From the NCBI RefSeq assembly GCF_003018255.1, contig NZ_CP027440.1: a DNA stretch of 64,000 nucleotides. One strand, given 5' to 3'. Every line of letters begins with the position of its first letter. Positions within the stretch are counted from its first letter, which is position 1. Origin of the DNA: Escherichia coli (lineage in GTDB: Bacteria; Pseudomonadota; Gammaproteobacteria; Enterobacterales; Enterobacteriaceae). The position numbers are program-made. Positions 7,601 to 10,600 of this stretch are shown one piece after another.

Positions 7601-10600
7601 GGTGAAGCGACGCCGTTTGTCATGGAGCTACCGGTCTACCATGTACCACACGTTAAAAGCCTGATTATCCAGACCTGGCAGCGTCTGAAAGGCTTCGTTC
7701 TGCGTGCTGGTAAAGTGATTATCATCGTCAGCATTTTCCTGAGTGCTTTCAACAGCTTCTCGCTGAGCGGGAAAATCGTCGATAACATCAACGACTCGGC
7801 GCTGGCTTCCGTCAGCCGGGTGATCACCCCAGTCTTCAAGCCGATTGGCGTGCATGAAGATAACTGGCAGGCAACGGTTGGCCTGTTTACAGGCGCAATG
7901 GCGAAAGAAGTGGTGGTGGGCACGCTCAACACCCTCTACACCGCAGAAAATATTCAGGACGAAGAGTTCAATCCGGCAGAATTTAACCTCGGTGAAGAGC
8001 TTTTCAGCGCGGTAGATGAAACCTGGCAGAGCCTGAAAGACACCTTCAGCCTTAGCGTACTGATGAACCCCATTGAAGCCAGCAAAGGCGACGGCGAAAT
8101 GGGTACCGGGGCGATGGGCGTGATGGATCAGAAATTCGGTAGCGCAGCAGCAGCTTACAGCTACCTGATTTTCGTCCTGCTGTATGTACCATGTATCTCG
8201 GTGATGGGAGCCATCGCCCGTGAATCAAGCCGTGGCTGGATGGGCTTCTCCATCCTGTGGGGGCTGAATATCGCTTACTCGCTGGCAACATTGTTCTATC
8301 AGGTCGCCAGCTACAGTCAGCACCCAACTTACAGCCTGGTGTGCATTCTGGCGGTTATCCTGTTTAACATTGTGGTTATCGGTTTGCTGCGTCGCGCGCG
8401 TAGCCGGGTGGATATCGAACTGCTGGCAACCCGCAAGTCGGTAAGCAGTTGCTGCGCAGCCAGCACCACCGGTGATTGCCATTAATGGCTTCACTTATTC
8501 AGGTGCGTGATTTGCTGGCGTTACGGGGCCGTATGGAAGCGGCCCAGATAAGCCAGACATTGAACACTCCGCAGCCAATGATTAACGCCATGCTGCAACA
8601 GCTGGAAAGCATGGGCAAAGCCGTGCGGATTCAGGAAGAACCTGACGGCTGCCTCTCTGGCAGTTGTAAAAGCTGCCCGGAAGGCAAAGCCTGTCTGCGC
8701 GAGTGGTGGGCGCTGCGTTAACCATACTCCATCGCCTGTTTTGAAAAGCCCGGTATGCGTTTGCATCCGGGCTTTTTTGCGTGCGGCTTTCCATAAAAAT
8801 GCAATTCTTGCAGCGCGACGTAAGTTCCTCTGAAAGCGTCTCGCAGGGATGAAAACTGGCTAATGCACAGGTGTGGAGTGGCGCGTAGAGTCGCGGCATT
8901 CAAACAACAGGTGAAGGAACGCCATGAGCAAAAAGCAGAGTTCCACCCCACACGATGCGCTGTTCAAACTCTTTTTACGCCAACCGGAGACGGCACGCGA
9001 TTTTCTTGCGTTTCATTTACCGGCACCCATTCACGCGCTCTGTGATATGAAAACCCTCAAGCTGGAGTCGAGCAGCTTTATTGATGACGATCTGCGTGAA
9101 AGCTATTCCGACGTGCTGTGGTCGGTGAAAACGGAACAAGGACCAGGATACATCTATTGTCTGATTGAACATCAAAGCACCTCAAACAAACTGATCGCAT
9201 TTCGCATGATGCGTTACGCTATTGCCGCAATGCAAAATCACCTTGATGCCGGATACAAAACGTTGCCGATGGTGGTGCCATTGTTGTTTTACCACGGTAT
9301 TGAAAGCCCCTATCCCTATTCGCTGTGTTGGCTGGATTGTTTCGCCGATCCCAACCTGGCAAGGCAGCTCTATGCCTCTGCATTTCCGCTGATTGATGTC
9401 ACCGTCATGCCTGATGATGAAATCATGCAGCACCGACGTATGGCGCTGCTGGAGTTAATTCAAAAACATATTCGTCAACGCGATCTAATGGGGCTGGTAG
9501 AGCAAATGGCCTGCTTATTAAGTAGTGGATACGCTAATGACAGACAAATCAAAGGGCTGTTTAATTACATCTTGCAAACCGGCGATGCGGTACGTTTTAA
9601 CGATTTTATCGACGGCGTTGCCGAACATTCACCGAAACACAAGGAGAGCTTAATGACTATTGCGGAAAGATTGCGGCAAGAGGGGTTTCAGAAAGGTATA
9701 CGAGCTATCGCCAAAACCATGCTGGATGCCGGAGTCCCTCTTGAGGACGTTCTGCGATTTACCAGCCTGACGGTTGAAGACCTTGCTGAAATAAATCATC
9801 AATAACGTAAAGGATGGTTTTAATGACAGATGCAGAAAGAGAATATCTTATTAGTTACCTGATTGGTTATTTATTGGGTCGACGCCTGGAAGCCCTGGAT
9901 ATCGCCAAAAGAATGCTGTAATCCGGAGTCCCTCTTGCAGACATCATGCGCTTTACCGGGGTGTCAGAAGAAGAGTTGGCTGCGGCGAGCCAGTAAAGTT
10001 CTGTCTCGCCATTTCAAAAGCCACCTACACCCTCTGCTTCAACGCCACCAGCATGCGACAAAACTCGGCCGGATGCGAAATAAACGGCGCATGGGCCGCT
10101 TTGGCGAAGATGTATGATTCGCTGTGAGGCCAAAGTTTATCCAGCATCGGCACCACTTTGCGCGGCACCAGACCGTCGAGATAGCCATACAATCGCAAAA
10201 ACGGCATGGACACGTTTTGCAGCGGCTGACGGAGATCGACCATTTTCAGGATTTCCAGCCCGCCATTAAGCACGTCAACCTCCGGCATCGGTAACGCCAG
10301 AACGGTTTTCTTCAGCGCCCGCGCATCCTGGCGCGCCGTTTCAGTACCCATGGTTTGTAACGCCAGGAACCGCTCCACCGTACGCTGAAAATCATCACTG
10401 AGTTGCTGCTGAAATCCCGCCAGCACGTCCGGTTTTATCCCCGGCCACTCGTCACGAGCACTAAAACAAGGTGACGACGCCACGGTGACCAGCGCCTGAA
10501 CACGCTCGGGATGGGTTAACGCAATCTGGCTTGCCACCAGCCCGCCCAGACTCCAGCCTAACCAAATGGCTTTATCAGGTGCCTGTCGCAGCACGGCTTC

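What the first reader, a model, noticed from the sequence alone, without database searches (positions are those of the whole stretch)
9823..9998. Decayed duplicate of the Rpn (YhgA) C-terminal module downstream of yhgA
The roughly 175 bp after the yhgA stop repeat the last ~60 bp of yhgA at about 75% nucleotide identity, but split over two frames (…LDIAKRML* then SGVPLADIMRFTGVSEEELAAASQ*). It looks like a remnant of a longer ancestral C-terminal repeat array or of a recombination event involving an rpn paralogue, which fits the recombination-promoting nature of Rpn proteins.
Basis: seen in the sequence. Interest (0 to 1): 0.35.

Follow-up and report, generated by a model that had tools for sequence, protein, structure and literature searches.

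The report
Nonsense-killed antitoxin gene copy after rpnA
The stretch after rpnA (yhgA) is a second, tandem copy of the small antitoxin gene that normally sits inside rpnA, switched off here by one in-frame stop codon; it is a further example of a gene arrangement already described for two sister rpn genes.

Summary
The repeat is real: 9900-9982 matches 9706-9788 (83 nt, 75%), about 20 sd above shuffles. Two details of the finding are wrong. The two peptide pieces lie in one frame, separated by an in-frame TAA (9919-9921), not in two frames. The duplication also covers the whole internal small cistron of rpnA (rpnAS), including its ribosome-binding site and MT.AER start (9820-9840 vs 9650-9670).

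It is therefore a stand-alone "rpnSs"-type gene, like ypaA after rpnE (Zhong et al. 2023, PMC10400941). Intact 57-aa orthologues (Pfam HTH_Rpn_C) sit at the same feoC-rpnA-[57 aa]-bioH position in E. ruysiae, cryptic-clade genomes and a few metagenome contigs. With the stop repaired, the sequence models as a three-helix bundle whose best PDB match is RpnA-S (7TH0).

Of 5426 complete E. coli genomes, 853 carry this long allele and at least 851 of them carry the TAA. Some lineages show further damage after the stop. The tail after the stop is orthologous to the C-terminus of K-12 RpnA, so the short K-12 allele is probably a deletion fusion.

The nearest relative of rpnA's own tail here is this downstream copy, not rpnB-E, so paralogue import is not supported. 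Verdict: a real, pseudogenised new member of a known kind, of modest interest.

The parts
8924..9805 (+). rpnA (yhgA), intact, 293 aa: recombination-promoting nuclease (RpnA-L) carrying the alternative C-terminal tail ...[39 protein letters not shown]
   Evidence: ORF list. Pfam PF04754, E 2e-91. NCBIfam RpnA equivalog NF007361, 674.6 bits against a cut-off of 583.
9641..9805 (+). Copy 1: the internal rpnAS cistron. SD AAGGAG at 9641-9646, internal ATG at 9653, 50 aa ([50 protein letters not shown]), sharing the rpnA stop.
   Evidence: Sequence. The equivalent start was shown experimentally for K-12 RpnAS (M244; PMC10400941). K-12 RpnAS is PDB 7TH0. Here the start is inferred by homology, not tested.
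9810..9814 (+). Shine-Dalgarno AAGGA of the downstream copy, 8 nt before the ATG at 9823 and 4 nt after the rpnA stop
   Evidence: Sequence. Aligns with the SD of the internal start of rpnA. Same layout as rpnE-ypaA in K-12.
9823..9921 (+). Open part of copy 2 (the rpnA-associated 'rpnSs' pseudogene): 32 codons, MTDAEREYLISYLIGYLLGRRLEALDIAKRML, then the premature TAA (9919-9921). It corresponds to helix 1 only.
   Evidence: The AF2 model of the repaired protein has helix 1 at residues 3-33.
9844..9879 (+). Three degenerate 12-nt (4-aa) units, YLIS / YLIG / YLLG, in helix 1 of copy 2. This is the hypervariable repeat zone typical of RpnS proteins.
   Evidence: Sequence. A homologue has one extra YLIS unit (P0022), and E. 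albertii alleles have 1-3 copies of YLISYLLDR (P0012-14).
9919..9921 (+). In-frame nonsense codon TAA. The same codon is CAA in E. ruysiae and cryptic-clade orthologues, GAA in L012, L100 and K-12-type rpnA, and TAT in L103.
   Evidence: Present in at least 851 of the 853 complete E. coli genomes that have the long allele. TAT and CAA versions found no match in that collection.
9922..9996 (+). Untranslated remainder of copy 2: SGVPLADIMRFTGVSEEELAAASQ plus the original stop TAA (9994-9996). It corresponds to helices 2-3 and is orthologous to the C-terminus of K-12 RpnA/RpnAS.
   Evidence: Alignment with K-12-type loci. NCBIfam RpnA model positions 254-292, E 7e-12, for the repaired ORF. Further damage in some strains: P37H/I41T/M42L, or a second stop.
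9706..9788 (+). Upstream arm of direct repeat D1 (within the rpnA tail). Its partner is 9900-9982; 83 nt, 75% identity.
   Evidence: Significance.
9900..9982 (+). Downstream arm of direct repeat D1 (within copy 2)
9650..9670 (+). Upstream arm of direct repeat D2 (start region of rpnAS). Its partner is 9820-9840; 21 nt, 81% identity.
9820..9840 (+). Downstream arm of direct repeat D2 (start region of copy 2)
10025..10795 (-). bioH, convergent neighbour. It fixes the downstream boundary: only 28 nt separate its stop from the stop of copy 2.

Best explanation
Window 9810-9996 is a tandem duplicate of the small cistron that lies inside the 3' end of rpnA. That cistron, rpnAS, encodes the antitoxin which neutralises the RpnA nuclease. 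The duplicate is a stand-alone 'rpnSs'-type gene, equivalent to ypaA/rpnESs after rpnE.

Its layout repeats that of the internal cistron:
- a Shine-Dalgarno sequence and ATG;
- a long helix 1 containing 4-aa repeat units;
- a helix-turn-helix tail.

In this strain, and in essentially all E. coli that carry this long allele, a single nonsense codon (TAA 9919-9921, in place of CAA/GAA) ends translation after helix 1. The three-helix antitoxin cannot be made, and the remainder is drifting as a pseudogene.

The tail after the stop is the orthologue of the K-12 RpnA C-terminus. The common short (K-12) rpnA allele is therefore most simply a 194/206-bp in-frame deletion, between GGG microhomologies at 4-aa-unit boundaries, that fused the nuclease domain to this downstream copy.

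Shown: the duplication, the shared frame, the stop codon, intact orthologues at the same locus, the population frequency, and the fold of the repaired protein. Inferred: loss of function, and the direction of the long-to-short change (my estimate is about 0.65 for that sub-claim).
For: - **Repeat significance.** Local score 61 against shuffles of 16.4 +/- 2.3.
- **Repeat anatomy.** D1 (83 nt, 75%) and D2 (21 nt, 81%, covering the start region) differ in spacing by 24 nt, which is two 4-aa units.
- **Single frame with an in-frame TAA**.
- **Intact orthologues.** 57-aa proteins P0001-P0010 carry the precomputed Pfam hit PF27070 HTH_Rpn_C. They lie at feoC-rpnA-[57 aa]-bioH in E. ruysiae, 'E. coli' and metagenome contigs L009-L012, L100 and L103, with CAA, GAA or TAT at the stop position.
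- **Homology of the repaired ORF.** It matches the NCBIfam RpnA model at positions 254-292, E 7e-12.
- **Fold of the repaired ORF.** AF2 gives pLDDT 93.2 with helices at 3-33, 38-45 and 49-56. The best Foldseek PDB hit is 7TH0, E. coli RpnA-S (probability 1.00, TM 0.80 on the target).
- **Same architecture as K-12 rpnE-ypaA:** stop codon, then AAGGAGAGATTAATGACTATT.
- **Published precedent.** Zhong et al. 2023 describe RpnESs and RpnCSs, and the loss of rpnSs genes by deletion or by fusion to the rpn N-terminal domain (PMC10400941).
- **Population data.** 853 of 5426 complete genomes have the long allele. The TAA is verified in 682 + 144 + 25 = 851 of them.
- **Decay after the stop.** There are three amino-acid changes in the L092 type, which represents 144 genomes. 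There is a second stop (TGA) in the L095 type, which represents 25 genomes.
- **Existing annotation.** PGAP calls it a pseudogene with an internal stop in some records.
- **Origin.** The DNA of the rpnA tail is related only to copy 2 and the K-12 rpnA tail, not to rpnB-E or ypaA.
- **K-12 alignment and the L100 junction**.
Against: - No expression data exist for strains with this allele. The SD and ATG are intact in every long allele I read, so a 32-aa helix-1 peptide could still be made.
- With about ten sequences in hand, I could not measure selection before and after the stop.
- The direction of change is not proven. E. whittamii has the short allele, and recombination between lineages could scramble the phylogenetic signal.
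- The local Pfam copy gave no significant hit for the short peptides. The HTH_Rpn_C assignment rests on precomputed annotations of the intact orthologues.
Confidence: 0.78

Rival explanations
1. The truncated ORF (9823-9921) is a functional 32-aa micropeptide. It would consist of helix 1 only, which is the dimerisation helix of RpnS, and would modulate RpnA-L/RpnA-S complexes. The TAA would then be an adaptive shortening rather than an inactivation.
For: - The SD and ATG are kept in all long alleles examined.
- The TAA is nearly fixed (851/853), so the truncated state is old and tolerated.
- Helix 1 forms the dimer interface in RpnAS (PMC10400941).
- Repeat-number change still occurs in a truncated allele (P0022).
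Against: - Helix 1 of this copy (YLISYLIGYLLGRRLEALD) differs in length by 8 residues, and in composition, from helix 1 of the co-resident RpnA ([13 protein letters not shown]). Zhong et al. found that even one extra 4-aa unit abolishes neutralisation.
- Amino-acid changes also occur before the stop (S11I, G19D).
- Near-fixation is equally expected for an old neutral lesion inherited clonally.
Confidence: 0.1
2. The downstream copy acts as a silent cassette. It would be a stored alternative C-terminal/antitoxin module that can replace the expressed rpnA tail by deletion or gene conversion between the direct repeats. That would switch toxin and antitoxin specificity together, loosely like orphan CdiA-CT or Rhs modules.
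For: Mosaic alleles exist at this locus:
- the K-12 type (copy-1 head plus copy-2 tail);
- P0016/L101 (FQKGIRANALN head plus AAASQ tail, and a third tail type, KEIIH, on rpnA);
- L100 and L012 (copy 2 carrying K-12-like segments).

The AAASQ tail is always the copy next to bioH. Zhong et al. speculate that RpnL itself may initiate such events.
Against: - These alleles show that recombination has happened, not that the silent copy is maintained for that purpose.
- The TAA lies inside the segment a K-12-type fusion would retain, so the commonest fusion would give a truncated protein.
- The post-stop decay argues against maintenance.
- There is no dedicated recombination site or enzyme.
Confidence: 0.08
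3. One reading: the segment was imported by recombination with another rpn paralogue (rpnB-E or a plasmid rpn).
For: Rpn tails share a common design, and the [11 protein letters not shown] start region is nearly identical in rpnA and rpnE.
Against: - At DNA level the two copies are each other's only relatives: scores of 56-61, against 16-20 for rpnB, rpnC, rpnD, rpnE and ypaA of K-12.
- Copy 2 is 37/49 identical to K-12 RpnAS, against 12-23 identities to the other RpnS proteins.
- Zhong et al. found the same local origin for RpnCSs and RpnESs.
- Only K-12 paralogues were compared. Plasmid or foreign rpn genes were not searched exhaustively.
Confidence: 0.03
4. The similarity is a chance or compositional resemblance.
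For: None.
Against: - The alignment score is about 20 sd above shuffles.
- The downstream part is orthologous to a real coding sequence in thousands of genomes.
Confidence: 0.01

Closest known systems
YpaA / RpnESs (downstream of rpnE in E. coli K-12) and RpnCSs (downstream of rpnC in some strains); Zhong et al. 2023, PNAS, PMC10400941
   Same: - A tandem second copy of the intragenic RpnS cistron lies directly after the rpn stop codon, on the same strand, with a duplicated SD and MT.AER start.
- It is most closely related to its own upstream RpnS rather than to other RpnS proteins.
- Helix 1 shows 4-aa repeat variation.
- It can be lost by fusion to the rpn N-terminal domain.
   Different: - It is associated with rpnA, which the held text of that paper does not list as having an Ss copy.
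- Helix 1 is hydrophobic (YLIS/YLIG/YLLG) rather than the charged/Gly-rich units typical of RpnS.
- The two copies are much more diverged (75% at DNA level) than rpnES and ypaA.
- In E. coli it is inactivated by a nearly fixed nonsense codon, whereas YpaA is expressed.
RpnA-S, the intragenic antitoxin of K-12 RpnA (PDB 7TH0)
   Same: - The post-stop tail (SGVPLADIMRFTGVSEEELAAASQ) is orthologous to the K-12 RpnAS tail, with 37/49 identity overall.
- The repaired protein is predicted to have the same three-helix fold.
   Different: - It has a separate cistron rather than a gene-within-a-gene arrangement.
- Helix 1 is 8 residues longer and has a different sequence.
- It is interrupted by TAA in this window.
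Displaced 'orphan' C-terminal modules downstream of cdiA or rhs genes
   Same: An older C-terminal module sits immediately downstream of the gene, whose current 3' end is a different variant. Short homology at the junction allows re-fusion.
   Different: This is an analogy only. There is no toxin-CT/immunity pair and no secretion system. The module here is the antitoxin/oligomerisation domain, and it carries its own translation start.

Membership tests
RpnS / RpnSs small proteins (Rpn C-terminal HTH domain, Pfam PF27070 HTH_Rpn_C) | Sequence homology to the C-terminal domain of an Rpn nuclease | tested here: met
   - The repaired ORF matches the NCBIfam RpnA model at positions 254-292, E 7e-12.
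- Intact orthologues carry a precomputed PF27070 hit.
- Identity to K-12 RpnAS is 37/49.
- The local Pfam copy gave no hit.
RpnS / RpnSs small proteins (Rpn C-terminal HTH domain, Pfam PF27070 HTH_Rpn_C) | Three-helix bundle with a long first helix, as in RpnA-S (7TH0) | tested here: met
AF2 gives pLDDT 93.2 with helices at 3-33, 38-45 and 49-56. The top Foldseek hit is 7TH0, probability 1.00. The ORF as it stands in the window ends after helix 1.
RpnS / RpnSs small proteins (Rpn C-terminal HTH domain, Pfam PF27070 HTH_Rpn_C) | Own ribosome-binding site and start codon; location within or immediately downstream of an rpn gene on the same strand | tested here: met
   AAGGA at 9810-9814 and ATG at 9823, 17 nt after the rpnA stop. 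The start region is a duplicate of the internal start of rpnA (D2). The layout matches rpnE-ypaA.
RpnS / RpnSs small proteins (Rpn C-terminal HTH domain, Pfam PF27070 HTH_Rpn_C) | Variation among strains by 4-aa (12-nt) repeat units in helix 1 | tested here: met
   - Units YLIS/YLIG/YLLG lie at 9844-9879.
- P0022 has an extra YLIS, and E. albertii alleles carry 1-3 copies of YLISYLLDR.
- Copy 1 also varies by one unit, 50 aa against 54 aa.
- The unit composition is atypical: hydrophobic.
RpnS / RpnSs small proteins (Rpn C-terminal HTH domain, Pfam PF27070 HTH_Rpn_C) | Uninterrupted reading frame encoding all three helices | tested here: not met
   An in-frame TAA at 9919-9921 follows codon 32. 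The window copy is therefore a pseudogene of the family, not a functional member.
RpnS / RpnSs small proteins (Rpn C-terminal HTH domain, Pfam PF27070 HTH_Rpn_C) | The protein is made and blocks the toxicity or nuclease activity of the cognate RpnL | not testable with these tools
   Needs tagging or ribosome profiling, plus SOS and growth assays as in PMC10400941.
RpnL-RpnS gene-within-gene toxin-antitoxin (the upstream rpnA itself) | N-terminal PD-(D/E)XK YhgA-like nuclease domain plus a C-terminal RpnS region with an internal SD and ATG | tested here: met
   PF04754 covers residues 8-209, E 2e-91. The NCBIfam RpnA equivalog scores above its cut-off. The internal AAGGAG (9641-9646) and ATG (9653) are conserved with K-12, where this start was shown experimentally.
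Programmed stop-codon read-through / recoding | A leaky stop context or a stimulatory downstream RNA structure, with conservation of the downstream frame | tested here: not met
   - The stop is TAA followed by T, which I know to be a strong terminator context in E. coli.
- No Rfam element was found.
- Folding of the upstream 9780-9885 segment showed no significant structure (z +0.78); the segment after the TAA was not folded.
- The downstream frame carries extra damage in 169 genomes.
Orphan toxin-CT/immunity cassettes (CDI, Rhs) | A displaced toxin C-terminal domain followed by its cognate immunity gene | tested here: not met
   Only a single 57-codon Rpn C-terminal-like frame lies between rpnA and bioH. 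There is no toxin domain and no second gene.

The most novel reading that the evidence does not exclude
The 3' end of rpnA may be a cassette-exchange site. New RpnS variants would be installed on the nuclease gene, and the previous tail would be pushed downstream with its own start signal. Displaced copies, even silenced ones, would be re-used by deletion or gene conversion to reset toxin-antitoxin specificity. On this reading the K-12 RpnA/RpnAS pair used for the crystal structure would itself be such a re-fusion.
Probability: 0.1. Interest if true: 0.55.

Novelty: new member of a known kind. Interest (0 to 1): 0.27.

Why it matters
- It adds rpnA to the rpn genes that have a downstream stand-alone antitoxin copy.
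- It suggests that the reference K-12 RpnA tail, which is the one whose structure was solved, descends from that downstream copy.
- It offers a natural contrast for testing what RpnSs copies do: intact in E. ruysiae and cryptic clades, nonsense-inactivated in about 16% of E. coli, and fused in the remainder.
- For annotation, 9823-9996 should be marked as a pseudogene (Rpn C-terminal HTH, internal stop) rather than left blank or called a 'transposase' fragment.
- It does not reveal a new mechanism.

Tried and rejected
- **Local Pfam scan of the short peptides:** no significant family. PF27070 appears only in precomputed annotations.
- **Rfam scan of 9400-10200:** nothing.
- **Sigma-70 promoter scan of 9300-10150:** nothing on the + strand. 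It gave one weak terminator-like site on the minus strand, within chance expectation.
- **Inverted repeat 9790-9810 / 9855-9875.** I considered it as an RBS-sequestering hairpin. The fold is no better than shuffles (z +0.78), so I rejected it.
- **Tandem Repeats Finder:** it does not pick up the decayed 12-nt units.
- **Second protein search, with the copy-1 tail:** it returned only fragments and added little.
- **Genome-contig scan with RpnA:** it returned mostly distant paralogues and only one orthologous locus (E. whittamii). The outgroup sampling for ancestral state therefore stayed thin. It did show that tandem second RpnS copies are common after rpn genes in Photorhabdus, Rouxiella and others.
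- **Supplementary files of Zhong et al.:** not held, so I could not check whether an rpnA-associated Ss is shown in their SI figures.
- **Paralogue-import and chance explanations:** rejected.
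Full report
**Context.** The window is E. coli chromosome: feoB, feoC, rpnA (yhgA; 8924-9805, +), bioH (10025-10795, -), gntX. The finding concerns the 190 nt between the rpnA stop (TAA 9803-9805) and the bioH stop.

- A local DNA alignment of the last 200 nt of rpnA against the following 219 nt pairs 9705-9763 with 9899-9957. The score is 61. Five hundred shuffles gave mean 16.4, sd 2.3, maximum 29.
- The repeat finder extends this to 83 nt at 75% identity: 9706-9788 against 9900-9982.
- One detail is wrong. Translation from 9823 reads MTDAEREYLISYLIGYLLGRRLEALDIAKRML-stop-SGVPLADIMRFTGVSEEELAAASQ-stop in a single frame. The interruption is an in-frame TAA at 9919-9921.
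- The duplication is also larger than described. A second repeat, 9650-9670 against 9820-9840 (21 nt, 81%), covers TTAATGAC.ATTGC.GAAAGA, which is the start codon and first residues (MT.AER) of the small cistron inside rpnA.
- A Shine-Dalgarno AAGGA (9810-9814) sits 8 nt before the ATG at 9823, mirroring AAGGAG (9641-9646) before the internal ATG at 9653.
- The two repeats differ in spacing by 24 nt, which is two 4-aa units.

**What it is.** Zhong et al. 2023 (PMC10400941) made four relevant points.
- Each E. coli rpn gene contains an internal start that produces a small protein, RpnS. RpnS is the C-terminal tail and acts as antitoxin to the full-length nuclease RpnL.
- Helix 1 of RpnS varies among strains by 4-aa repeats.
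- Some rpn genes have a second, separate copy downstream ('rpnSs'): ypaA after rpnE, and a copy after rpnC in some strains. Each is derived from its own upstream gene.

The element here has exactly that anatomy. In K-12 the rpnE stop is followed directly by AAGGAGAGATTAATGACTATT... (ypaA), the same junction logic as at 9803-9825.

**Intact relatives.** A search with the stop-repaired 60-aa translation (from the upstream ATG at 9814) found 57-aa proteins, for example MTDAEREYLISYLIGCLLGRRLEALDTAKRMLQSGVPLADIMLFTGLSEEELVEASQ.
- Their precomputed Pfam hit is PF27070, HTH_Rpn_C.
- They are encoded at the same place, feoC-rpnA-[57 aa]-bioH, in E. ruysiae, in genomes labelled E. coli that are probably cryptic clades, and on metagenome contigs (L009-L012, L100, L103).
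- At the position of the window's TAA they have CAA (L009-L011), GAA (L012, L100) or TAT (L103).
- The repaired ORF matches the C-terminal positions 254-292 of the NCBIfam RpnA model, E 7e-12.
- AlphaFold2 on an alignment of these proteins gives a confident model: pLDDT 93.2, helices at 3-33, 38-45 and 49-56.
- The best PDB match of that model is 7TH0, E. coli RpnA-S (probability 1.00, TM 0.80 normalised on the target).
- The stop at codon 33 therefore removes helices 2 and 3 and leaves only helix 1.

**Repeat units.** Helix 1 of this copy contains three degenerate 12-nt units: YLIS, YLIG and YLLG (9844-9879).
- A homologue has one more YLIS (P0022).
- E. albertii alleles carry one to three copies of YLISYLLDR (P0012-P0014).
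- The upstream copy also varies by one unit. RpnAS is 50 aa here (GIRAIAK) and 54 aa in UTI89 and most other long alleles (GIRTNALNIAK).
- This is the family hallmark, although the units here are hydrophobic rather than charged.

**Population picture in the 5426 complete E. coli genomes.**

| Allele class | Genomes |
|---|---|
| Long allele (e.g. UTI89, E2348/69) | 853 |
| ...TAA with the window's exact 30-mer | 682 |
| ...TAA with the L092-type 30-mer | 144 |
| ...TAA plus a second stop (TGA) two codons later | 25 |
| ...TAA verified, total | 851 of 853 |

- Thirty-mers carrying TAT or CAA found nothing.
- No genome is 95% or more identical to the intact E. ruysiae-type allele.
- The L092 type has three amino-acid replacements after the stop (P37H, I41T, M42L).
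- The long allele is usually unannotated in this interval. In some records PGAP calls it a pseudogene: 'transposase; internal stop; incomplete'.
- Together these results point to an old, nearly fixed inactivation followed by drift.

**Relation to the K-12 allele.** Alignment with K-12-type loci (RP437, 0H26 and others) shows that they lack 194 nt present here, or 206 nt relative to UTI89.
- K-12 RpnA reads ...[49 protein letters not shown].
- Its head is therefore the head of copy 1, and its tail is the orthologue of the downstream copy (93% identical over 91 nt).
- The TAA codon here is GAA there.
- Contig L100 carries a long allele whose downstream copy reads ...GYLLG|EQSKALHIAKIMLESG.... 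It has GGG at the end of both RQEG (copy 1) and YLLG (copy 2). A deletion between these GGG triplets reproduces the K-12 junction exactly and in frame.
- The downstream-copy type is also present in E. albertii, where an internal deletion fuses RpnA residues ~41-68 to it (L013), and in E. ruysiae.
- I therefore favour 'long is older, short is a fusion', as Zhong et al. describe for other rpnSs genes.
- E. whittamii has the short allele, there split by an IS, and recombination could blur the signal. This direction is an inference, at about 0.65.

**Origin of the duplicate.** The tail now attached to rpnA (9690-9805) matches only the downstream copy (score 61) and the K-12 rpnA tail (56). Against the 3' ends of K-12 rpnB, rpnC, rpnD, rpnE and ypaA it scores 16-20. 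Protein comparisons agree. This supports a local tandem duplication of the rpnAS unit, now 25% diverged, and not import from a paralogue.

**Other alleles at the locus.** Contig L101 has a third arrangement. Its rpnA tail is [36 protein letters not shown]...KEIIH. A downstream copy follows, [31 protein letters not shown]...AAASQ, with a near-perfect duplicate of the internal start region. Segments seen in the window's copy 1 and copy 2 are exchanged between positions in that allele. The locus has therefore undergone repeated rearrangement, with the AAASQ tail always next to bioH. Tandem second RpnS copies also follow rpn genes in Photorhabdus, Rouxiella and other Enterobacterales loci fetched here.

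**How it most likely works.**
- Shown: in this strain rpnA has an intact frame, with its internal SD and ATG.
- Inferred by homology: rpnA makes RpnA-L, and the internal start makes a 50-aa RpnAS with the AEINHQ tail.
- Inferred: the downstream cistron can at most give a 32-aa helix-1 peptide and cannot form the three-helix antitoxin, so it is a pseudogene.
- I found no RNA family, no promoter-like site and no significant hairpin that would suggest another role.
- Two rivals remain open at low probability: a functional helix-1 micropeptide, and a silent cassette used for tail exchange.

**Novelty and score.** The kind of element (rpnSs, HTH_Rpn_C) is published and in Pfam. An rpnA-linked copy is not named in the text I could read, and the SI was not available. 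I file it as a pseudogenised new member of a known kind. Interest is modest, 0.27. The most useful point for a specialist is that the K-12 RpnA tail appears to be the downstream copy re-fused to the nuclease.

Noticed in passing
window 9690-9710 (rpnA codons ~256-262); L002 1330-1350: The rpnA tail in the window lacks one 12-nt (4-aa) unit that most long alleles have: GIRAIAK here against GIRTNALNIAK in UTI89. RpnAS is therefore 50 aa instead of 54. Only 3 of 5425 records were 99% or more identical to the window over 9560-10060.
   Followed up: partly
L101 1-700 (metagenome contig ERZ928014 k127_58327): A third architecture occurs at the same locus. The rpnA tail ends ...GVQQGVQQGRRLEALDIAQTML...KEIIH. 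It is followed by an intact 53-aa downstream copy whose head is a near-exact duplicate of the internal start region. Modules seen in the window's two copies are swapped between positions.
   Followed up: partly
L014 2150-3400 (Escherichia whittamii Sa2BVA5): rpnA is split after about residue 215 by an inserted element encoding a TnpB-like protein. The gene resumes with a K-12-type short tail.
   Followed up: no
L013 2501-2737 (E. albertii CP034212.1); P0012-P0014: rpnA is reduced to a 78-96-aa ORF that fuses residues ~41-68 of the nuclease domain to the downstream-copy type. The number of YLISYLLDR (27-nt) repeats varies from 1 to 3 among strains.
   Followed up: partly
L005 1069-1443, L006 1014-1607 (E. 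coli 2/0, Z1323HEC0355; also the ST131-type hits H85, H76): In many strains with the short allele, rpnA itself is annotated as a pseudogene missing its N-terminus. The RpnS-coding 3' end is kept.
   Followed up: no
L025, L034, L038, L045, L054, L068, L075 (Rouxiella, Photorhabdus and uncultured Enterobacterales MAG loci): tblastn shows two or three tandem RpnS-like frames after single rpn genes, differing in the number of 4-aa units (for example EGRQ or GIEQ repeats). Downstream RpnS copies are therefore widespread.
   Followed up: no
L103 1501-1674 (metagenome contig): One allele has TAT (Tyr) where the window has TAA, on a haplotype otherwise like the TAA-bearing L092 type (G19D). This could be a reversion of the nonsense codon. 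It is a single contig, so sequencing error cannot be excluded.
   Followed up: no
summary lines: One plasmid record, and one genome with two places, also match the rpnA 3' region. I did not inspect them.
   Followed up: no
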